Part shown: piece after piece, positions 5,513 through 49,257 of the stretch
Layout: each line of letters begins with the position of its first letter
How positions within the stretch are numbered: the first letter of the stretch is position 1
Origin: an uncultured Orrella sp.
Lineage (GTDB): Bacteria > Pseudomonadota > Gammaproteobacteria > Burkholderiales > Burkholderiaceae_B
NCBI GenBank assembly: GCA_964491995.1
Contig: CAZBIN010000002.1
Location: forward strand, 1 to 49,257
Length of the DNA: 49,257 nt
Direction: 5' to 3'
Notes under the pieces: model-generated
The model's database searches: none
The model's input: only the letters and a program-made list of their open reading frames with translations
Told to the model about the DNA's origin: nothing
Position numbers and translations under genes: made by a program

Positions 5513-6481
5513 CTAAACACGAACCTTGCCTGAAACCTCAGGATTGACCACGTTATCGGGGAGCTTGCCTTCAAGCAGCGCGAGCAGCGTCTGCACGGAC
5601 CCACGACTCAAATTCTCCAGGCTGGTGGCCGTCAAACCAGCAACGTGAGGGGTCAGTAACGTATTGGGACAACCAAATATCGGTTCGGCACCTGACAAAA
5701 CCGCTGGCTCGTGCACATCGAGCACCGCAGCACCGACCTGGCCACTGTGCAGTGCGGGCACCAGTGCAGCGGTGTCTATCACCGGGCCCCGAGCCACATT
5801 GACAATCGCCGCACCGTGTTTCATGTGCGCAATCGCAGAGGAATCGATCAAGTGGTGTGTCTGTTCATTGTGTGGACATGCCAGCACAACGATGTCAGAT
5901 TGCTGGAGAAGCGTCGCCTTGTCGACAGCCTGCACAAAAGCGGGCAGTGATTCCGGTCGACGGGTCAAGCCAAGCACTTTGACGCCAAGGGCATCAAGCG
6001 CCGTGGCCAGACGAGTGCCAATGGACCCCACACCAATCACCCCGCAAGTACTGCCCGCGAGCTCGATGGCTTGATTTGACATGGGCTTGGCGGCATTCCA
6101 CCCCTGCCCACGCAAGGTGTGGTCGATCAGACTCAGACCACGCCGAATATGGAATATGGCAGCCAGCGCGTACTCGGTCACGGCAACGGTGTTGCCCCCG
6201 GGCATGTTGGCCACCACAATGCCGCGCGCGCTGGCCTGATGCATGGGAATCATGTCCAGCCCGACGCCGTGACGCACGACATATTTCATGCGGGGTGCGT
6301 GATCAAAAATATCTTCCGGCAGATGGGCCCTCACAATCATCGCATCACAGTCCCCGATCTCTCTCACAAGCGTCTGGGGCGAAGGGTCTGTTGCAAGCAC
6401 AACATCAACGTGCTTTGCGAGCTCGGCCTGATATGTGGGGTGAATCGGATTGGTCAACAAAACGCGCGCGCGCATGGGCAT
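5513..6481 (-). CDS. D-isomer-specific 2-hydroxyacid dehydrogenase (SerA-like)
   Basis: RHGVGLD, GVIGVGSIG Rossmann motif, VNVARG, LDVHEP, TPHVAG. Confidence 0.92.
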   Translation of the reverse strand: MPMRARVLLTNPIHPTYQAELAKHVDVVLATDPSPQTLVREIGDCDAMIVRAHLPEDIFDHAPRMKYVVRHGVGLDMIPMHQASARGIVVANMPGGNTVAVTEYALAAIFHIRRGLSLIDHTLRGQGWNAAKPMSNQAIELAGSTCGVIGVGSIGTRLATALDALGVKVLGLTRRPESLPAFVQAVDKATLLQQSDIVVLACPHNEQTHHLIDSSAIAHMKHGAAIVNVARGPVIDTAALVPALHSGQVGAAVLDVHEPAVLSGAEPIFGCPNTLLTPHVAGLTATSLENLSRGSVQTLLALLEGKLPDNVVNPEVSGKVRV

Positions 6482-38844: not shown

Positions 38845-40530
38845 TTACATCCGTTCAGGAGCCGAAACCCCAAGCAAGTCCAGACCATTGGCCAGTACCT
38901 GACGTGTTGCATCTGCCAGCCGCAATCTGGCACCTTTAAGTGCCTCATCATCAACCAGGACCCGCTCGGCGTTATACCAGCCGTGGAAATCTGAGGCACA
39001 GTCACGCAACCAGAAAGCGATCAAGTGCGGCGACAGATCCTGAACTGCCTGCTGAACCACCCCAGGAAACTCGGCCAGTCGTTTGAGCAGCGTCTGTTCG
39101 GACACTGCGCTCAACAAAGAGGCGTCGGCGCTATGAATATCTCCCAAGGCAACACCGCCTTGCAGCAGAATGGAGCAGATCCGCGCGTGTGCATATTGCA
39201 CATAGTAGACGGGATTCTCTTCCGTTTGTGATCTGGCCAGATCAATGTCAAATACAAACTCGGTATCGGCACGACGCTGAATCAGAAAAAACCGCACCGC
39301 ATCACGACCGACCCAGTCGATCAGATCCCTCAACGTGACGTAACTGCCAGCACGCTTGGAAATCTTGACTTCTTCATTGCCCCGCACAACCTTGACCATC
39401 TTGTGCAAAACATAGGCTGGGTAGTCCGCTGGAACGCCCATATCCAGACCTTGCAGGCCGGCTCTGACGCGGGCAACCGTTCCATGGTGGTCGCTACCCT
39501 GAATATTGATGGCCTTGCGAAACCCGCGCACCCATTTATTGACGTGATAGGCCACGTCTGGCACAAAATAGGTATAGCCACCTTCGCTTTTGCGCATCAC
39601 ACGGTCTTTATCGTCACCCGTGCCCAGCTCCGTGGTTCGGAGCCATAGCGCACCGCCATCTTCAAATGTGTGACCGTTCTCGATCAGTCGGTTAACAACT
39701 GCCTGCACCCTTCCGCTTTCGTAGAGTGAGCTCTCAAGGTAATAATTGTCAAAGGCGAGTCCAAATGCCTTCAGGTCAAGATCCTGCTCCCTGCGCAAAT
39801 ACGTCACTGCAAACCGACGAATCGCATCGAGATCTTCGATATCACCTACCGCCTGAACCGGCTCACCATCACTTGCCTGCACGGTCTTGCAAGCCATGTA
39901 ATCGTTGGCAATGTCCAGAATATAGTCACCGCGATAGCCATCTGCGGGATAGTCGGGATGGCCCGGCTCGATTCCTCTGGCTCTGGCCTGGACGCTGATG
40001 GCAAGGTTGTGAATCTGGTTGCCGGCATCGTTGTAATAAAACTCGCGAGTCACGTCATAGCCGCCAGCCGTGAACAAGCGACACAGCGCATCGCCAAGTG
40101 CCGCCTGGCGCGCGTGACCCACGTGCAACGGTCCGGTCGGGTTGGCCGAAACAAACTCCACCAGAACTTTCTCGTTGCGTGCTGGCGCGTAACCGTACAG
40201 ATCCTTGCTCTTGTCTACCGCATCAAGTACCGCAACCACTGCCGCACTGGACAAGCGAAAGTTGATGAAACCAGGTCCCGCGATCTCGGCATGATCAATC
40301 AGCGCACCGGCCTGTTCATCCTGCTGAAGCCTTTCAATGATCGTCTGGGCCAGATCGCGGGGGCGCAACCCAGCCTTCTTTGCCAGTTGCATGGCCACGT
40401 TGGTTGCCACATCACCATGCGCAGCGACCTTTGGCCGCTCCAGAAGAACGGTCGATGCAACATCGGGAACCAGTTCGTTCACAATGCGTTGCAGACTCTT
40501 GATAAGGGTATTTGCTTGCTCCGGGAGCAT
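38845..40530 (-). CDS. argS: Arginine--tRNA ligase
   Basis: [61 protein letters not shown]. Confidence 0.98.
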
Positions 40531-40643
40531 AGTCAGACCATGAAATAGTAAAGTGCTAAATGATAGCTTGAATCAAATAAACGTATTGGCAGCGGCAAAT
40601 TTGCACTTTAACTTGATTGCCAGACAACCGCGGGAGAAAAGCA

Positions 40644-40997
40644 ATGTTGGTCACTTTTAGCAGTAAAGCCGATATGGACGTCCTGATGATGGAGAAGCAC
40701 GCGATTCAGGTCTTGATCGCCGCCGGCAAACTCACCGCCCCGGAGATCCCGCAACGTGGGGTATTCACCATCGAGCAGCTCGATGACGCGATCAAGAATC
40801 TGCAGGTTGCCATCCACGAGGAAGGCACGACCCTTGAAAAGCATCCCGATGATCAGGACGAGGATGACGATGACAACAAACCCAAAGCCGGTGAGGTTGT
40901 TCTGCTGGCCCAGCGTGCGGCACCCTTGCTGCAAATGATGCGCAAAGCCAAGGCTGCCCATGCGCCCATCCTCTGGGAAACCAGCTCGGGCTATTGA
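40644..40997 (+). CDS. DUF1840 family protein
   Basis: [12 protein letters not shown], acidic linker, L.QRAAPLL.M; GGAG RBS. Confidence 0.85.
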
Positions 40998-41019
40998 CGC
41001 AGAAAAAGACTGTCATACG

Positions 41020-41292
41020 ATGAACTGTCGCCCCCACTGCGCCGCCTGCTGTATTGCACCCTCGATCTCGAGTCCGATTCCGGGCATGCCGCACGGAAAG
41101 CCGGCGGGGGTGCGATGCATTCAGCTCGACGAGCTTGATCGATGCATGATTTTCGGGCAGACAGACCGGCCGCGGGTCTGTTCGTCGCTTCAGCCTGAAC
41201 CCGTCATGTGTGGTCAGAGCCGCGAGCAAGCAATCCGCTGGCTCAGTGAACTGGAAGCACTGACAAAGTCATCCTGCACCGCCAACCATTGA
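41020..41292 (+). CDS. YkgJ family cysteine-cluster protein
   Basis: [40 protein letters not shown]. Confidence 0.9.
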
Positions 41293-43134
41293 GCGGAAAT
41301 ACTCTCTGGTCTCAGCATCCGTGCAATAAACGTAGCAACCCTTCATGCCGCGAGTCATGAGAGTCCGGTATGTATTCCGGATAATCAGATCAACCTCGGC
41401 ACGCACCTGCTCAGGATCGGTCTTGAGACGTGTTTTGTAGCCACGGATGGTCTTGTCATGGCGGTCGCGGTTTTCTGGAATCGTGACGATCCGACCGCCG
41501 CGCACAGTAAGATCCGGGCCCACGATAACGCCAATATAGTCAACTTCCAGCCCCTGGCAGGTATGAATACAGCCCACCTGTGCGACGGACTCTGCCGCAA
41601 TGATCCACAGACTGCCGTCTGTACCGAGATTCCACTGCCGCTGGTAAGCATCACCAATAACAATGTCATAGGCTCGCGGATTTTTCTTGCTGAGCCAGGG
41701 CCAGCAATAGCCAGCGACCACTCTTGCCCTGTTTTTGTCATTCCTGGCTTCGATCGCAGCATGCAAACCCTGCGGCGTATCGAACACCTGAAAATCGTAG
41801 TAGGTCTTGTCGAGCTCGGTGTTGGCTGTAGGACGGATGCCTAACGCATTGTCGAGCCAGGCCAGATATCCATCAGAGCCACTGCACCGAAACTGAGACG
41901 CCAACTCATATTCTTCGATCTGTGCACCCTTTGCCTTGGCAAACGCCCTGATGCTTTGCTGAGTCCCAATATCGCTCAAAGCCACCCGCTGGTCCTCATC
42001 AATAAAGAAAACCGTGGCCCTGGACGATGCAATCAGCTCTTTGATCTGATTGTCTCCCAGATTGGCATAAAGACCACTTTTCTCGTTCAGACGGTGGGCT
42101 TCATCAACGATCAGAAAGTCATAGGTGTCTGGTTCAACAGAATGAAAACCACCGGATCCCGCAAACATACTGGAGAACTTTGTCTTGGTCATCGTGCCCA
42201 CGAGTTTGCTCTGGTAAACAGCTCGAGGCGCAGCATTCTTGGAAACATACTGTCCCAGAAGTCCGGCACTGGTCAATCGAACCAGCAAGTTGATAGCAAG
42301 GACTGTCTTGCCTGTGCCTGGCCCACCCTGGATGATCACAACCTTTGGACAGGCCGAAGATGCCGTTCTCAACGCAGCGAGGGTTGCTTCGAAGACCTCT
42401 TTCTGATCGTCAATCAGCACAAACTCGGCTCTGGCCGCAAGCAAACCCTTTAACGCATCCGCAAGTGCTTTCGACGGTCGGATTCTGCCGTTTGCCAGCT
42501 CGTAGAGAACTTCTTTCGAGTCGCCGTACCTGACATGTCTTTTGATAAATTCGCGCAACTGCTGCTGTTCTTTCGCCCCCTTGAGAAACAACGGCGCTTT
42601 GGCGACGTATCCTGAATAGTGCTCGCTATCCAGAACGCCATCTCTCACATAATTATGAAGAAACGCACAGGGACGTATGGATATGCCTCCCTCGTAAACA
42701 GCCTCATTGAAACCTTCCAGCAAAGAGGCATATGACCAAGCCTGATAGGAAGGATGAACAACTTCTCTCTGGGCTTTGCCGAGATAGGTCACAACGATGG
42801 CATCCTTGTCCGTCGCCGTGACCCGATCCCACTGTTTAAGCTCGATCACAATGGCATTCTTGTTGCCTTCACGATCCCGCCCAGTCAACGTGACATCAAT
42901 GCGTTTGGAAGACTGGGGTATGTGCAGTTCTACTGCAATGCCCATTGAGTCCGGAATTTCGTCATCGCGCAGAACCCTTGCCACATAGCCAAGCGACTCC
43001 CGCCAGGATCTGATCTCCGAGTCCGCAACACGCTTGCCCGTTGCTCGCCTGTAATTGGCCAGAATGACATTCTCAATGTCGTCGTAGTCAGAGTGATGCA
43101 GGAACTCCCGCTTGTCCGCTTCATAGACGATCAT
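41269..43134 (-). CDS. DUF2075 (Schlafen group-3-type SF1 helicase) with N-terminal PD-(D/E)xK-like nuclease domain
   Basis: E…RIDV…IELKQW nuclease-like motif; Walker A GGPGTGKT; Walker B IVDEAHRL; QFRC; IHTCQGLE; [10 protein letters not shown]. Confidence 0.9.
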
Positions 43135-43161
43135 TGTGAGTGCTCCGCAAAATGCTCAGTC

Positions 43162-43560
43162 TCAAATCTGGGTGTACTTTTTGCTCGAACCTCTGGCTTT
43201 TTCAACAGGGTATTTCAGGGCATTTTTCTGAATCTTGTCACAAACCGCGCTATTGAGGTCAACGCCCAGAACTGCAGCAAGCCTGACAAGATAGAGCTGC
43301 ACATCGGCCAGCTCATCACGAACCGCCTGAGAGGTCTCTGCGCGAACACCGGCTTCTTTGGACTGCTCCTCGGTCATCCATTGAAAAATCTCTGTCAGCT
43401 CTCCGACTTCTGCGCTCAGTGCCATCACCAGATTTTTGGGGGAATGAAACTGAGCCCAATCCCGTTCATCGGCAAACCTGTCTAATGCCCGAGTCAGCGG
43501 TGCAACATTTATCAGGGGCTCCGTGTTCGCCATGTCTGTTTGTTCTGTCACGTCTCTCAT
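43162..43560 (-). CDS. MazG-like nucleotide pyrophosphohydrolase (DCTPP1/RS21-C6 type)
   Basis: F..ERDW.QFHSPKNL, EVGEL.EIFQW, DELADV, K..KN..KYP; alternative start at 43533. Confidence 0.92.
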   Translation of the reverse strand: MRDVTEQTDMANTEPLINVAPLTRALDRFADERDWAQFHSPKNLVMALSAEVGELTEIFQWMTEEQSKEAGVRAETSQAVRDELADVQLYLVRLAAVLGVDLNSAVCDKIQKNALKYPVEKARGSSKKYTQI

Positions 43561-43990
43561 CCGTATCGTTTGTTAACTTATACGACAAGTCATCAGGGCA
43601 GGCAATCCAGACCCGCGCAATCGACGCAAAAGCAGAGCCAGAGCAGATGAGCCTCACAGAAAGCCTTGTCGCCACCAGACCCATCCACAAACCGTCGATT
43701 CCAGACTTCCAGATCGCGAGCTCTGTCGCCGTCATACATCACAACGTGTGAATGGCGAACGATCTTCAAGGCATTGCTACAGATCACTTGCACTTGCATG
43801 CTCTGCCCCGATAGACTCAGCAAAAATTGCAGCAATGCAATGACGGTAACTGTGGTGTTTCGTCGCCGTAAAAGCACCGTGAATTCGCTGCTTGCACAGC
43901 CCGGCATTCGGGCAATCCAAATAACTGTCAGGAACAGCGTTGGCAATGAGAACGAACAAATTTTGCACAACAGCGCTGTCGAGATGGGTC

Positions 43991-44863
43991 TTGACGCCAT
44001 GTCCGCCAAATCTGATCAGGCGGGCGTCGCTTGCGATCTGGTTGTCTGCTGCGATTGGCGCGCTCGCCCCCGGCAATGCACTGGCTCAACAGGCCAGCAC
44101 GCAAGCAAAGGAGAGCTCTGCCCAGGCTGATGGACCCTGTCCGTCGGGCGTTTACCTGATGGGTCGGGACACTCCCTGGGTACCAACACCTGACACACTG
44201 GTTCAGGCCATGCTGGATCTGGTCGAACTCACCCCACAAGACTACGTCATCGATCTGGGTTCAGGCGATGGCCGCATGGTGATCGCAGCTGCCCAGCGAG
44301 GGGCTTCTGGCCACGGTGTTGAATACAACCCCATCATGGTTGAGTGTGCAAACTGGCGCGCCAGACAAGCCGGCGTCACCGACAAAGCCCGTTTTATACA
44401 AGGCGACATGTTCACCGCTGACATCTCTGAGGCCACGGTGTTGCCTTTGTTCCTTCTGGACGAGAACTTGCACCAGCTCATGCCGACCTTTCTCAATTTA
44501 CGGCCAGGCACGCGAATTGCCACCAACGACTATGCAATCCCAGGCTGGGACGCGGTCAAGAGCCTGACGCTAAGTGGCAATTGCGGCCACTGGTGCACGG
44601 CGCATCTCTGGATCGTGCCTGCCCGGATCAGTGGAACCTGGAACCTGGATGGCGTGGGAGAACTGACGCTTGATCAGTCGGCCCAACAGATCTCCGGCAC
44701 CTTGTCATCGAGCAACGGCTCCCAGAAAGTTATCGGACAGGTGCACGGCGACAAGGTCACCTTCCAGGCTGGCGACATTGAGTACACCGGCACCGTGAAC
44801 GGAAATGTGATGACCGGCCAGAGCGCGTCGCACACATGGTCTGCAACCAGAAAAAGCTCCTGA
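43991..44863 (+). CDS. Exported class I SAM-dependent methyltransferase with C-terminal beta-rich domain
   Basis: RR-containing signal peptide ending ALA, DTPWVPTP, DLGSGDGR, GVE, GDMF; start uncertain (43940 or TTG 43991). Confidence 0.85.
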   Translation: MTPCPPNLIRRASLAIWLSAAIGALAPGNALAQQASTQAKESSAQADGPCPSGVYLMGRDTPWVPTPDTLVQAMLDLVELTPQDYVIDLGSGDGRMVIAAAQRGASGHGVEYNPIMVECANWRARQAGVTDKARFIQGDMFTADISEATVLPLFLLDENLHQLMPTFLNLRPGTRIATNDYAIPGWDAVKSLTLSGNCGHWCTAHLWIVPARISGTWNLDGVGELTLDQSAQQISGTLSSSNGSQKVIGQVHGDKVTFQAGDIEYTGTVNGNVMTGQSASHTWSATRKSS

Positions 44864-45122
44864 CTGTCGCTCTTGGAGGCCAAGGTGGGCGACAGGGAGG
44901 TCTGTTTTGGGTCGGAAGCGGACTATCGCCAAATTCAACTCTCGACCCATGGCTGTCGTCCCTTTTCTTAAAACTATTCAATTTTCCTTTTGAAGTACAC
45001 AGCCCGCTCAGTTTTCACAAAACCCAGTGTGACTCATCGGTGAAGGTCTGTTGCCAATACCGGCATTCAATCCCCCCTCTGGTAGGGGGATGTAGCCGTT
45101 TTCGGATCTGAGAACGGCGGGC

Positions 45123-46283
45123 TTACGGCTTGGGCATGGCCTGAAGCGCCTTATTTGCTAACCAGGCCTTGCTGACCAGGGGATCGGCGGGGATGAAAGT
45201 GCCGTGCCCGAGGCGCTGGATGAAATTGAGCTCTACCATGCGATTGGTCATGCCTTGCACCTGGCCTGAATCAACCGGGGATCCGATGAGCTTCGAATAC
45301 TCTGCCAGGGCGTCAGCGCTATACAGATTTTTGACGCCGTTCGGGGATCCCGAGGCAATCTTGTCGAAGATCACCAGCGCCAGCTCGCCGAGGTCTTCCA
45401 TGTTGGCGATCTCTGTATTCCCTGCGGTGGCCGCCTTGGTACTGCAAATAATCGGGAATGCGACATTGGGATCATGCTCGTGTGACTGCAGGACGTTGAC
45501 AGCCTGCAGCAATTCCTCCGGCCTGTTGCCCATGGTTCTAAATCCCTCCTGCAGCACGGCGAGGTCTGGGATCTTGTAGCCAGGTGCAGCGGTCATAGCT
45601 TGGTGAATCCACTCCACAAAATCGTCTCCAAGCGGTGCATAGTCTTGATACGTAGCGCCAGCAAAGGGCTTCGTGCGGCGCAAAGTCATATCGGCCACCA
45701 GCGACTTGTGCGAGCCGGTTCCGACGATCAGCAGGCGACCAGAACGGTGCGGGTTCAAGTTGACCTGATCACGGGCGGCCTTGAGGGCGTGCAGAAGGTT
45801 GTTTCCTTCATCTGTGGCCATGGCCTGCTGCACCTCGTCAATGATCAGTACCACATCGGTATGGGCCAGATCAGTGATCTCTTGAAATACCTGTCCCAGT
45901 GTTGCGCCGTTATTTGCGCCGATGCTATCAATTTGAAATCCGAAGCTGAAGCCTACCGCGCCAAGATTGAGGCCCTTCAAGCGCCCCAGGATGCCGCTGC
46001 CAGGCGTGGCCAACTGGTGCGCCACGGCCTTGACGGTCTCTGTGACCAGATCCGTGGTGCTTTTGGCCCTGTCAGCCCAAAGATCTACATAGATGGCGAT
46101 CGCGCCGTCTGCCTCGATCGCAGGTATCAGGTCTTGTTTGATAAACGTAGTCTTGCCCACGCGCCGGATCCCAGACAAAAACAGGCCTGACAGGATGCCT
46201 GCATCAAGAGGCCCAGGGTTGAGCAATGCGTTTTTGATGGCTTCGGCGTACTTGGGGCGTCGGAAGTATGAGGATTTAGCCAT
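45123..46283 (-). CDS. P-loop ATP-binding protein (AAA/STAND-like) with probable C-terminal winged helix
   Basis: Walker A GIRRVGKT, YVDLW, Walker B LIIDEVQ, VGTGS, PF.G. Confidence 0.88.
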   Translation of the reverse strand: MAKSSYFRRPKYAEAIKNALLNPGPLDAGILSGLFLSGIRRVGKTTFIKQDLIPAIEADGAIAIYVDLWADRAKSTTDLVTETVKAVAHQLATPGSGILGRLKGLNLGAVGFSFGFQIDSIGANNGATLGQVFQEITDLAHTDVVLIIDEVQQAMATDEGNNLLHALKAARDQVNLNPHRSGRLLIVGTGSHKSLVADMTLRRTKPFAGATYQDYAPLGDDFVEWIHQAMTAAPGYKIPDLAVLQEGFRTMGNRPEELLQAVNVLQSHEHDPNVAFPIICSTKAATAGNTEIANMEDLGELALVIFDKIASGSPNGVKNLYSADALAEYSKLIGSPVDSGQVQGMTNRMVELNFIQRLGHGTFIPADPLVSKAWLANKALQAMPKP

Positions 46284-46359
46284 AGGTCTTATTCAAAATT
46301 ATGCGATATCAATAATTATGCTTCATAAATAATTTAACGTAAATCCGGGTAAGATCCCA

Positions 46360-46395
46360 AAAACAAGAAACCCGTCAGGCGGCGGGTGGGTTTCA
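46360..46395 (-). terminator. Intrinsic terminator-like hairpin
   Basis: Minus strand GAAACCC…GGGTTTC followed by TTGTTTTT. Confidence 0.45.
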
Positions 46396-46577
46396 AGAGC
46401 GCCAGGACAGAACAGACAGAACTCCGGTACGAATTGTTACCTAGAGTCGCTGCCCTGCCCTTCGTCGTCAGCGTGGGAGAGGGTTCGGACAGGTACCACG
46501 TCGTGCACTCGGAGCTGATGACGGGAAAAATTGGCGTGCCGAACAGGTCGCCGCAGAAAAGGAAATGCTGAAGGGAT

Positions 46578-46602
46578 AAAAAAGACCACCCGAAGGTGGC
46601 CT
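46578..46602 (-). terminator. Intrinsic terminator
   Basis: Minus strand GGCCACC-TTCG-GGTGGTC-TTTTTT (UUCG tetraloop plus U-tract). Confidence 0.75.
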
Positions 46603-46792
46603 ATCTAAGATTAAACCGGAAAATCTAAACTACTCCGGATAAATCTAAGTTCTAATCGGATCCTACACAACCCTGTAGGATCCGATTAGAAGTTAGATCG
46701 AGCAACCCCCAGATCAAGCACTTAGAAATCTTAAATCGGACACTCAACTCGATCTGTCCGGTTTTGATTAGATTTTCCTACTAAGATTAGCT
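46603..46792. mobile_element. Head-to-head pair of DDE-transposon-like ends with arrays of putative transposase-binding repeats
   Basis: ATCTAA-N6/7-(C/T)CGGA repeats at 46603, 46623 and 46643, then TCCTACA-caaccc-TGTAGGA, then inverted copies at 46681 and 46757 (degenerate at about 46776). Confidence 0.65.
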
Positions 46793-47212
46793 TTCAACTA
46801 AATACTTGAAACTGTCTCCGTGGCTAGCGACCGGTCTCTTCTGTTGACGTTTACCAGAACCGACCGAGAAATAACAAGCTCTCCCTGTAATCGACCGGAA
46901 GATGATTGATGTTTCCGAACGGGCGGGAGCGAGAAAGTTTAATCAGAGCAACGATCAGGTCAAAATTGCCCTTTCAAACTGGAATCGTCGCTTTATAACC
47001 GTAGCAATTCAGAAGTCTTCAATAACTGCTCGGCAGCTTTCGACTAGGAGGCGTCCTTCGCTCGATGGCGACGTATAACTGAAATTCGAAGCGTCCCGGC
47101 CATTTGATCCCTTTGGATGTCAGCCACACAAATGCACCGTAAGCCTTGTGGTGCACAACTGCGGGGGTGGTATGCCGAGATCCTTCGATCAGAGTTGCGC
47201 AGCGCGCCAGAT

Positions 47213-49257
47213 TTAACTTCGATCAAAAAGATCGTCGACTTCATCTGGGCCGGCGGAGAACCGCGGCGAAGGATCACGATCTTCAGGATCCTCGCTATTC
47301 GTAATGTAGCTTTGCAGGCTGTTCTCGATGTCGATCGAGCGTGCGACCTCTCGGGCTCGATCTACTGCTATCACTAGCCCTAACTCCTCGAATTTCACCT
47401 GGACAATTTTTACAATATTATCTTCAGCTTGATCAATGTCCCCCCAGTCTATCCCAGAGAGGGCATCTGTGATTTCAACGAAATCGCCCAATGAATCCGA
47501 TGCTAGTTCCACAACGCGTTCAAAGATATCTGTCACGAGAGAGTCGCGTTCTGGCATGCCGTCGGGCAATTCATTTGCGATCGCCATTGCATCCAAAATA
47601 TCATCATCGTCAAGGATATCTCCCAAATTGTTAGTCAAAAACTGAATCGCATCGCCGACAGATATCTTCTCCAGAGTCAAACCGTACCTTATCGTAGACA
47701 GTGAGCGATCGGACCCGCCGATTGATCCTTTCGCAAGAACGAACTTCAACGCATCCGTCAAGTATTTGTTGGAGCTGTCAAACATCAGCGTTTCGTTGCA
47801 GAGAATAGAAATAAACGAGGCGTCATATTCCAAAAAACCTTCTTTACCGGATTCTATAAAGATGTCTCGACAAATCTCATTCGCGACGTTCTCGGAGATG
47901 ACCTTTTCCCTCTTAATGTTAAGAATCGTTTCAATCCCATTGACCGATCGGAGACTAAACGCTGCCTCCATGAGCATTCGGGTATCAGTAGCATATCTCT
48001 GCAATAAAAAATCACCAATTGACGGGTTGAATAGATCCAACTCAACATTAGATCCACCATTAAAAATTCTGCTAAGAAAAGAGCCAGTCAATAGCCGAAT
48101 ATAGGATCCGAAATCAAGGCGCCCGCGCAGATTTTGATTCCCTGGGCGGCCAGCAAGTCGGTGAAAGGCATCAGCAAGGACTAGCTCGTCGATACGTTTG
48201 CGATTGAGAACTACAAGCAAAACGATAGCTCTCTGACTAGCGTCTAATTGAACGTCAAACGGGTGACCCCATATCCTAGAAGGATCTGCAAGCGAACGCT
48301 CTATGTAAGGCCAATATCCTGCTACATCCTCGTACTCTCTTCGTGATGGATCGGTAATAAAATTGATAAGCCGAGGATTGAAATTTTGATGTGCTATTAC
48401 TTTGCGATAGCGCTTGTCCGTATAGAACTCTTCTCGAAACTCATCGGACAGCCCAGAATGCCAGATATGATTGTATAAAATACGGGCTTTATCAATCAAA
48501 CTTAGTGCATCGATTCGGAGCTCGTACTCGTTGCGTTTCAAATTTTCGTTCTCGAACGAATCAATAAAAAACTTACCCTGATTTAGTATGGTGCTCCGTG
48601 AGGTGAGGATAAATCGCTTTAATTTATTTGCTGAAATCCTTCGCATGAAGCCCGCAAGATGCCCTCCTTCGTGGCCCCGGAGGGCTTCAAGGTAGTTGCG
48701 CCCAAGAAAATCGTCAAAGTAAAAAATTTGCTTCGTATCTTTTGAAAAAATCTGTTCTGCCTCTTTGATATCCTCGATTACATTGACGAACTGAAACTCC
48801 TCGGATACATATTGCAAGCACAGGTGTTCTGCAAGCGTCGTTTTTCCGACGCCTGGATCACCTGAAATAATTAATACACCTAGCCTGTTTGAGATTTCCA
48901 ACGCTTTCTTGTGGTTTTCGGTTATGGCGTATCGTGCAGATTTTTGAATAATTTCGCCCAGCGAAAATTCGCTTCTTCCCATAATTCCGCTTTGTGCAAT
49001 AAAAGCAAGAATGTTCGCGCTGTGCAGCCAAAGTTTATAGCTATTTCTTTCGGCCTCTGGAAATTGTGACAGCAGGTCATTCAGATCTTCTTTCCCATAA
49101 ATATCGTCTTCCCGAATAACATACGGCTTCAAAGCACCCGAGATTTTTTTCTTGTCAGCTCGCGACAAGGGATTTGAAATCGCCAGTATGTAACGATTTG
49201 GCTTCAGTCGATCTAACTTTGGCTTCTCCTCCCGTACAAGCGTAGCGATGAGCTGCA
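47213..49257 (-). CDS. STAND-class (nSTAND3-like) NTPase, probably fused to an N-terminal restriction-endonuclease domain; 5' end lies outside the window
   Basis: Frame open to the window edge (…LKPNRYILAISNPLS…DIYGKEDLNDLL…YKLWL); Walker A GDPGVGKT; Walker B FYFDDFLG; ILTSR; ILYNH; NPRLI; visibly AT-richer than the core genes. Confidence 0.85.
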   Translation of the reverse strand, partial: QLIATLVREEKPKLDRLKPNRYILAISNPLSRADKKKISGALKPYVIREDDIYGKEDLNDLLSQFPEAERNSYKLWLHSANILAFIAQSGIMGRSEFSLGEIIQKSARYAITENHKKALEISNRLGVLIISGDPGVGKTTLAEHLCLQYVSEEFQFVNVIEDIKEAEQIFSKDTKQIFYFDDFLGRNYLEALRGHEGGHLAGFMRRISANKLKRFILTSRSTILNQGKFFIDSFENENLKRNEYELRIDALSLIDKARILYNHIWHSGLSDEFREEFYTDKRYRKVIAHQNFNPRLINFITDPSRREYEDVAGYWPYIERSLADPSRIWGHPFDVQLDASQRAIVLLVVLNRKRIDELVLADAFHRLAGRPGNQNLRGRLDFGSYIRLLTGSFLSRIFNGGSNVELDLFNPSIGDFLLQRYATDTRMLMEAAFSLRSVNGIETILNIKREKVISENVANEICRDIFIESGKEGFLEYDASFISILCNETLMFDSSNKYLTDALKFVLAKGSIGGSDRSLSTIRYGLTLEKISVGDAIQFLTNNLGDILDDDDILDAMAIANELPDGMPERDSLVTDIFERVVELASDSLGDFVEITDALSGIDWGDIDQAEDNIVKIVQVKFEELGLVIAVDRAREVARSIDIENSLQSYITNSEDPEDRDPSPRFSAGPDEVDDLFDRS

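What the first reader, a model, noticed from the sequence alone, without database searches (positions are those of the whole stretch)
46603..46792. Unannotated head-to-head junction of two transposon-like ends (…ACA-6 bp-TGT…) with clustered versus spaced binding-site arrays
Seen: a 25-bp inverted repeat with one mismatch (46643-46667 / 46674-46698; inner 18 bp perfect) around CAACCC. The left side carries three tandem ATCTAA…CGGA units at exact 20-bp period (46603, 46623, 46643) ending in TCCTACA. The right side starts TGTAGGA and carries inverted units at 46681, 46757 and a degenerate one near 46776. Known: Tn7/Tn5053-like, IS481/IS1202 and IS21 elements have TG(T)…(A)CA termini followed after about 7-8 bp by repeated 18-22-bp transposase sites; in Tn7 one end is clustered and the other spaced. 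Inference: a right end abutting a left end, either a tandem insertion at a hotspot or an integrated circle junction. A 6-bp spacer differs from the 5-bp TSD of Tn7/Tn5053, hinting at a distinct family. No transposase and no partner end for the left-hand element are visible in the window, and the right-hand element would carry the STAND defence gene as cargo.
Basis: partly seen in the sequence, partly recalled or inferred. Interest (0 to 1): 0.8.

Follow-up and report, generated by a model that had tools for sequence, protein, structure and literature searches.

The report
Stacked Tn7-like transposon ends behind gyrB
The palindrome is the seam where the left end of one Tn7-type transposon meets the right end of another, gutted one; related elements in many other bacteria begin a few bases after the essential gene gyrB, which is likely a dedicated landing site where they pile up.

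Summary
The repeats are real. They are the two ends of a Tn7-like transposon family. A complete genome of the same genus holds a 32.8-kb element bounded by the same ends (right 90/90 identical, left 112/125). It encodes TnsA, TnsB, TnsC and a long TniQ/TnsD, has a 5-bp duplication and sits behind gyrB. The window's island occupies the same gyrB–argS interval, although gyrB's 3' end is missing from this assembly. Eleven of 12 TnsD homologs in a 401-genome order sample lie downstream of gyrB. Of 16 elements with both ends found, 15 start 2–11 bp after the stop codon and 12 have exact 5-bp duplications. The 6-bp spacer is a 5-bp duplication (AACCC) plus one base, so it does not mark a new family: other junctions have 0–6 bp, and a relative shows the same 5+1. 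Best reading: two insertions stacked at a gyrB attachment site, the newer carrying an nSTAND3 gene, the older a relic. No full tns gene is in this assembly. I found no gyrB attachment site in nine paper searches. This scan noted gyrB-homing Tn7-like elements before on other DNA.

The parts
46578..46667 (-). Right (clustered) end of the older, left-hand Tn7-like element: terminal TGT at 46667-46665, three predicted TnsB sites at 20-bp period (46643-46660, 46623-46639, 46603-46620), then a terminator-like hairpin
   Evidence: 90 of 90 identical to the gyrB-proximal end of the complete element in G009. The same end lies 4 bp after the gyrB stop in contig L074 and in run X20.
46578..46602 (-). Intrinsic-terminator-like hairpin plus T-run inside the right end; would stop gyrB read-through when this end is next to gyrB (inferred)
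   Evidence: Such a hairpin occurs in 13 of 16 right ends and 5 of 16 left ends of relatives under a loose script rule.
46668..46668 (.). Single extra base, read as a 1-bp offset between two insertion points (inferred)
   Evidence: Absent next to the same left end in run X20. G012 shows the same 5+1 spacer at its gyrB site.
46669..46673 (.). 5-bp target-site duplication (AACCC on +) of the right-hand element
   Evidence: The same 5 bp flank the same left end in run X20, before a different neighbour. Its last four bases on the minus strand equal the four bases that follow the gyrB stop in L074. The matching copy at the far end is off the contig.
46674..46792 (+). Left (spaced) end of the newer, right-hand Tn7-like element: terminal TGT, predicted TnsB sites at 46681-46698, 46757-46773 and 46776-46792
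   Evidence: 112 of 125 identical to the gyrB-distal end of the G009 element; site positions.
47213..49257 (-). nSTAND3 NTPase gene (PADLOC PDC-S73 candidate defence model), cargo of the right-hand element, 5' part cut by the contig end
   Evidence: Pfam PF20720 E 7.6e-48; PDC-S73 E 2e-223. The left end plus this gene is 2 differences from an 11.9-kb contig in run X20.
46413..46529 (+). 39-codon fragment of a gene (metallophosphoesterase-like by its motifs, my reading) that lies inside the G009 element; marks the left-hand element as internally deleted
   Evidence: 85% identity over 39 aa to the G009 protein; 82% DNA identity.
45123..46283 (-). AAA/ATPase_2 gene; island gene, membership of the left-hand element not shown
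   Evidence: no hit in the gyrB-downstream regions fetched from relatives.
41269..44863 (.). Schlafen group-3 helicase, MazG-like and methyltransferase genes at the distal part of the island; probably older than the right end
   Evidence: Schlafen and MazG sit in the same interval in G009 at 72% DNA identity, like the backbone (72-77%), whereas the right end is 100% identical.
38845..41292 (.). Host backbone (argS, DUF1840, CxxCxxCC gene) that follows gyrB closely in relatives without an island; distal boundary of the island

Best explanation
The inverted repeat is a junction of a left end and a right end of a Tn7-like transposon family, likely made by two separate cut-and-paste insertions 1 bp apart at an attachment site just behind the gyrB stop codon. 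Shown: both ends match the ends of a complete TnsA-TnsB-TnsC-TniQ/TnsD element with a 5-bp duplication behind gyrB in G009. The window island lies in the gyrB-argS interval. Relatives start 2-11 bp after the gyrB stop with the clustered end towards gyrB, and head-to-head junctions with 0-6 bp spacers are common there. Inferred, by analogy with Tn7: the long TniQ/TnsD binds the last codons of gyrB and recruits TnsC, and TnsA+TnsB insert the element in one orientation outside the reading frame. The recognition site survives, so a later element lands at nearly the same base and pushes the older one outwards. Here the older element probably landed at +5 and the newer at +4, giving 5+1 = 6 bp. The older one has since lost its interior and left end. 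The hairpin in the right end would replace gyrB's displaced terminator.
For: G009 element C1:3135573-3168348 with GATGT on both sides and Pfam TnsA_N, rve/Mu-transpos_C, TniB and TniQ+HTH_17. End identity 90/90 and 112/125. Synteny. Order sample: 12 of 401 genomes hit, and 11 of the 12 have the gene 4-25 kb downstream of gyrB on the same strand. Family sample without G009: 7 of 8 full-length matches are linked to gyrB, against 2 of 6 matches limited to the N-terminal core. Of 22 gyrB-downstream regions examined, 16 gave both ends, 12 of them with an exact 5-bp duplication, and 15 start at +2 to +11. Junction spacers: 0 (G166), 4 (G065), 5 (G280, G432, G855, G938), 6 (G012). The window's right end lies at +4 of gyrB in L074 and X20. 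The same left end has the same 5 bp but another neighbour in X20.
Against: gyrB's 3' end, the newer element's right end and any full tns gene are missing from this assembly, so the window's link to gyrB rests on synteny. The G009 element sits at +56, not +2 to +11. In 4 of 16 elements the two flanks are shifted by 1-2 nt rather than identical. Related ends occur away from gyrB on C50 and C121. Distant TnsD relatives (23-25%) occur on plasmids, and the two regions read show no gene annotated as gyrB. In X20 the base after the stop differs by one from my reconstruction. Near-identical ends side by side conflict with Tn7-type target immunity. The TnsD query and profile came from gyrB-linked elements, and I ran no control with an unrelated TnsD. 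TnsD binding to gyrB is untested.
Confidence: 0.85

Rival explanations
1. The junction is a collapsed stack: three or more elements were inserted at gyrB, and recombination or deletion between near-identical ends brought non-neighbouring ends together. The family and site are the same, but the 6 bp do not record one 1-bp offset.
For: In X20 a 107-bp stretch that begins with another end type lies between the same 5 bp and a similar terminal repeat. Four of 16 relatives have shifted flanks that simple insertion does not explain. The left-hand element is deleted inside.
Against: G012 shows an intact element with matching 5-bp flanks followed by one base and an older end. The spacer fits the bases that follow the gyrB stop in L074.
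Confidence: 0.08
2. An excised transposon circle (right end-spacer-left end) was integrated by recombination, so both ends belong to one element.
For: The two ends belong to one family and face each other as in a circle junction.
Against: The element encodes TnsA, the nuclease for complete linear excision (PMC9308760 passage). The left end keeps its 5 bp while its neighbour changes between strains. Spacers vary from 0 to 6 bp, always at gyrB.
Confidence: 0.03
3. The ends belong to an IS21-, IS1202/IS481- or Tn5053-type element with a 6-bp duplication.
For: TGT…ACA termini with repeated sites are shared by these families (recalled). The window spacer is 6 bp.
Against: The element with these ends encodes TnsA and a 621-aa TniQ/TnsD and has 5-bp duplications. 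The genome's only two rve hits (C415, C412) carry none of these ends.
Confidence: 0.02
4. An assembly chimera joined two strains' contigs at the shared inverted repeat.
For: The assembly has 436 contigs. In run X2 three contigs leave the right end with other flanks, and depth differs across the junction.
Against: One contig of run X1 crosses the junction with 0 differences. Isolate-like, near-complete genomes show the same kind of junction.
Confidence: 0.02

Closest known systems
Tn7 (TnsABC+TnsD, attTn7 behind glmS)
   Same: TGT/ACA ends with a short terminal stretch and repeated TnsB sites, clustered at the right end and spaced at the left (PMC9308760, passages). 5-bp duplication and one-orientation insertion just downstream of an essential gene (PMC2918618, passages). 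Gene order tnsA-B-C-D.
   Different: The target is gyrB, at +2 to +11 from the stop, against about 20 bp behind glmS. Three right-end sites at 20-bp period instead of four. TnsB is far from Tn7 TnsB (E 2e-14) and closer to type I-F CAST TnsB (E 1e-47 to 1e-49). No tnsE was recognised, but it was not searched for. Same-family stacks are frequent.
Tn7017-type I-F3 CAST with parE-targeting TnsD
   Same: A protein-guided att site at a type II topoisomerase B-subunit gene (parE att from PMC11406308, passages; parE/gyrB paralogy is established knowledge). TnsB is related to I-F CAST TnsB. Three relatives have a short plus a long TniQ.
   Different: gyrB, not parE. I recognised no cas genes in the ORF lists of eight relatives (by eye, no profile scan). 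The relation of the two TnsD proteins was not tested.
Tn6022/AbaR and other Tn7-like island builders (comM, yhiN, tRNA, nrdB/nrdD sites)
   Same: Att-site homing, island growth, and repeated insertion in spite of target immunity (PMC11014353, passages; bioRxiv 2025.07.27.667033, passages).
   Different: Different target gene. The insertion lies outside the reading frame. A single long TniQ-HTH_17 protein is the likely selector.

Membership tests
Tn7-like transposons | TGT…ACA ends with asymmetric arrays of transposase sites | tested here: met
Tn7-like transposons | tnsA, tnsB, tnsC and tniQ/tnsD between the ends | tested here: met
   Met in G009, whose ends match the window's. Not found in G000 itself except an 84-aa TnsD fragment on C50; the assembly is 94.9% complete and the right-hand element runs off the contig.
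Tn7-like transposons | 5-bp target-site duplication | tested here: met
   12 of 16 relatives exact, 4 shifted. For the window only one copy is visible.
Tn7-like transposons | Fixed att site and orientation next to a conserved gene | tested here: met
   15 of 16 elements at +2 to +11 of the gyrB stop, clustered end first; the window by synteny.
Tn7-like transposons | TnsD binds the att gene and is needed for insertion | not testable with these tools
   Inferred from genomic linkage only.
Tn7-like transposons | Target immunity | tested here: inconclusive
   Stacks with near-identical ends exist, but rates and order of events are unknown.
Prototype Tn7 family (glmS, TnsE) | Insertion behind glmS | tested here: not met
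   The linked gene is gyrB.
Type I-F3 CAST | cas8/5f, cas7f, cas6f and a CRISPR array in the element | tested here: inconclusive
   None recognised in ORF lists; no profile scan of all cargo.
Tn5053/Tn402 | tniABQ(R) without TnsA, targeting res sites | tested here: not met
   TnsA_N present, TniQ is 621 aa, and the target is gyrB.
IS21 / IS1202-IS481 | One transposase (plus IstB) in a short element between the ends | tested here: not met
   The ends bound elements of 9-38 kb; those with tns genes carry tnsABC-tniQ. The family features are recalled.

The most novel reading that the evidence does not exclude
The 3' end of gyrB is an undescribed, protein-recognised attachment site used by several Tn7-like subfamilies across this order. 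Their target immunity is leaky enough that elements with identical ends stack within a few bases of each other, and their right ends carry a spare terminator for gyrB. The result is an integron-like, growing array of defence genes next to the replication origin, and a natural site-specific integration tool aimed at a universal single-copy gene.
Probability: 0.5. Interest if true: 0.7.

Novelty: new variant of a known kind. Interest (0 to 1): 0.5.

Why it matters
The junction alone is a scar of ordinary Tn7-type stacking. What it points to matters more: a Tn7-like family that homes to gyrB, a site not named in the Tn7 papers I could search. gyrB is essential, single-copy and near-universal, and it sits beside dnaA-dnaN here. 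A TnsD that reads its last codons would be a new safe-harbour integration system and would explain defence islands at this spot. Stacks of elements with identical ends give a direct test of how target immunity is bypassed.

Tried and rejected
Exact end pattern in genome contigs: 0 hits. TnsD by the search for related loci in genome contigs: no relative. End DNA against plasmids: one chance-level hit. Mu-transpos_C and TniQ profiles in G000: no hit, but the controls did not ring either; tblastn with 54 Tns proteins from relatives found only the C50 fragment. A left end for the left-hand element: none in the window at up to 8 mismatches, and no end in the genome is preceded by the needed 5 bp (C50 has CATGG). 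Rfam 44800-47300: no match. Class-wide sample: 3 of 400 genomes matched, and the 2 outside the order were N-terminal-only, on other contigs than gyrB and without an end after gyrB. Ends for G009's second tns cluster: none found. Runs X7 and X5 laid nothing. Iteron, oriT or res readings were dropped because the repeats bound complete transposons in relatives; no direct search for those elements was made. One search's genome-wide repeat count was swamped by runs of N and was redone.

Full report
Observation. The window is the whole contig C2 of a 436-contig assembly. The 25-bp inverted repeat around CAACCC, the three units at 20-bp period on the left and the three spaced units on the right are present as described. 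The middle left unit is one base shorter inside. No such repeat appeared in 100 shuffles of the window, and only one other locus in the genome meets the same rule. A 404-bp contig of run X1 crosses the junction without a difference; this run may be the source sample.

What the ends belong to. Of 61 genomes searched with the junction DNA, G009 (same genus, one contig) gave strong matches; three others matched only the hairpin. In G009 the two halves lie 32.8 kb apart and face inwards, at C1:3135573-3168348, with GATGT on both outer sides. Between them are an HTH gene and tnsA (PF08722), tnsB (PF00665, PF09299), tnsC (PF05621) and a 621-aa TniQ with an HTH_17 domain. The window's clustered end is 90 of 90 identical to G009's gyrB-proximal end, and its spaced end is 112 of 125 identical to the distal end. 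By the Tn7 layout (clustered right end, spaced left end; PMC9308760, passages) the window holds a right end at 46578-46667 and a left end at 46674-46792. Among solved structures this TnsB is closest to type I-F CAST TnsB (E 1e-47 to 1e-49) and far from Tn7 TnsB (E 2e-14).

Where the window lies. The window's minus strand is collinear with G009 downstream of gyrB: island, Schlafen and MazG genes, then argS. In most of the 16 genus members with a gyrB end, DUF1840 or argS follows within about a kilobase; G009 and G012 carry an element there. G000 lacks the gyrB 3' end: C194 stops at codon 631 of the 749-aa query. The link of this contig to gyrB is therefore inferred from synteny. Two other sources show the window's own right end 4 bp after a gyrB stop: metagenome contig L074 and run X20, from another study.

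gyrB as a landing site. The G009 TnsD found 12 of 401 genomes in an order-wide sample. In 11 of the 12 the gene lies 4-25 kb downstream of gyrB on the same strand; the twelfth is interrupted by three stops and is on another contig. A 20-row profile, built largely from gyrB-linked members, found 13 of 301 family genomes. Leaving out G009's two matches, 7 of 8 full-length matches are gyrB-linked. The eighth, in G1021, is on another contig and resembles G009's second tns cluster. Only 2 of 6 matches limited to the N-terminal core are linked. A class-wide sample added nothing outside the order. I examined 22 gyrB-downstream regions and found both ends in 16; in G057, G236, G279, G291, G936 and G1021 no distal end was found, in part because contigs or fetched stretches ended. 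G907, G914 and G1007 were read only to 1.5 kb. Fifteen of the 16 start at +2 to +11 from the stop, always with the clustered end first, and G009 starts at +56. Twelve have an exact 5-bp duplication, and four have flanks shifted by 1-2 nt. Some members (G855, G938, G975, G991) have different end repeats and a distant or undetected TnsB, so more than one subfamily uses the site. Homologs with names come from Alcaligenes, Azonexus, Sterolibacterium and Rhodocyclaceae, so the order is probably Burkholderiales (inference).

The 6-bp spacer. Left-end/right-end junctions recur at gyrB, with spacers of 0 (G166), 4 (G065), 5 (G280, G432, G855, G938) and 6 bp (G012); a second G280 junction can be read as 3 or 6. 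G012 is the clearest parallel: ATCGC on both sides of its element, then one base, then an older end. In run X20 the window's left end and nSTAND3 gene (2 differences in 2,589 bp) are flanked by the same AACCC but then by a different older end, without the sixth base. So AACCC is the duplication. On the minus strand the spacer reads G-GGTT-G, and GGTT is what follows the gyrB stop in L074. This fits a newer insertion at +4 behind a TAG stop and an older one at +5. That is a reconstruction; X20's own post-stop bases differ from it at one position.

State of the two elements. The right-hand element carries an nSTAND3 gene that matches the candidate defence model PDC-S73 and runs off the contig, so its autonomy is unknown. 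The left-hand element is a relic. About 50 bp inside its right end lies a 39-codon piece of a gene found within the G009 element, and no left end exists in the window. The Schlafen and MazG genes are as diverged from G009 as the backbone, so they probably predate the 100%-identical end. No full tns gene is in G000.

Mechanism. Shown: end structure, gene set in relatives, 5-bp duplications, fixed site and orientation, and stacking. Inferred from Tn7 (PMC2918618, passages): TnsD binds the end of the gyrB reading frame, TnsC is loaded, and TnsA+B insert outside the gene, so the site survives and is reused. The last 66 nt of gyrB are conserved at first and second codon positions in carriers, which any conserved gene would show; it does not locate the binding site. 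A terminator-like hairpin lies within 170 bp of 13 of 16 right ends and 5 of 16 left ends under a loose rule, and in the window's right end; it would replace gyrB's displaced terminator (untested). How near-identical ends escape immunity is open. Tn6022 shows strong immunity in tests yet repeated insertions in genomes (PMC11014353, passages). Insertion after the resident lost tnsB is my preferred guess.

Against. The G009 offset of +56, inside a hairpin split by the insertion, is unexplained. Four elements have shifted flanks. Family ends occur away from gyrB on C50 and C121. Distant relatives occur on plasmids, and the two regions read show no gene annotated as gyrB. Kin are not independent. 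No unrelated TnsD was run as a control.

Literature. Nine searches gave no paper naming gyrB as a Tn7-like att site. Term counts for gyrB or gyr were 0 in the main texts of PMC10293859, PMC11406308, PMC11014353 and bioRxiv 2025.07.27.667033 (passages only), and 0 in three supplementary files of PMC10293859, whose tables may not name neighbouring genes. PMC12452197 has two gyrB mentions that I saw only as a listing count. PMC4731212 (passages and one supplement row) lists a Tn7-like transposon at locus tags B479_00025-00140 of P. putida HB3267; the numbering suggests a place right after gyrB, but that is my inference and the passages read do not say it. The 2014 review on heteromeric transposase elements was not held. 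That Tn7-like elements stack at glmS is recalled, not read. Subscription papers, transposon registries and bioRxiv supplements were not seen and could name this site. This scan's notes report gyrB-homing Tn7-like elements on three other genomes; one was marked as partly fallen, without detail. I had reached the reading before that call, and those notes are not independent support.

Verdict. A real tandem junction of a Tn7-like family that targets gyrB: a new variant of a known kind. Confidence 0.85, interest 0.5.

Noticed in passing
G000:C121:1465-1766: A 302-bp stretch that starts with the family's terminal 10 bp and ends in a right-type end, with flanks TCAAA and TCAAG; possibly a gene-less mini-element away from gyrB. 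The same flanks appear in runs X1, X2 and X3.
   Followed up: partly
G000:C50:223-2372: A left-type end with the family's spacing, an ATPase gene and an 84-aa C-terminal TnsD fragment, beside a dioxygenase-like gene end (my reading of the translation); a decayed relative at a non-gyrB site.
   Followed up: partly
G009:C1:3135517-3135572: The complete element sits at +56, in the loop of a hairpin whose arms it separates, behind a degenerate end at +4/+7; unexplained offset.
   Followed up: partly
G009:C1:3185814-3191437: A second, divergent tnsA-B-C-D cluster inside the same island (about 25% identical TnsB), with an ortholog in G1021 that is not on the gyrB contig; its ends and target were not found.
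   Followed up: partly
L013:7128-9418 (G009 element cargo): A reverse transcriptase gene (PF00078) overlapping an AAA_21 ATPase gene, retron-like or other RT defence cassette; type I restriction-modification-like genes (by sequence, recalled) also lie in the element.
   Followed up: no
G280, G432, G855, G938 gyrB islands: The two flanks of the outer element are shifted by 1-2 nt and the left end is followed at once by another end; the repeated pattern suggests collapse between near-identical right ends.
   Followed up: partly
G094, G170, G279 elements: A short TniQ followed by a longer TniQ/TnsD, a dual-selector layout with no cas genes recognised.
   Followed up: no
G012:C7, gyrB +6 to +9209: A 9.2-kb element with a 5-bp duplication and no tns gene detected: a non-autonomous member with a different end sequence, the same type as the neighbour seen in run X20.
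   Followed up: partly
G000:C194 3' end: The match to G009 gyrB stops at 5713, about 95 bp before the contig end, and the frame then reaches a stop; may be an assembly join, and explains why the att site is missing.
   Followed up: no
window 41269-43560: Schlafen group-3 helicase plus MazG-like gene pair, shared with G009 in the same interval.
   Followed up: no
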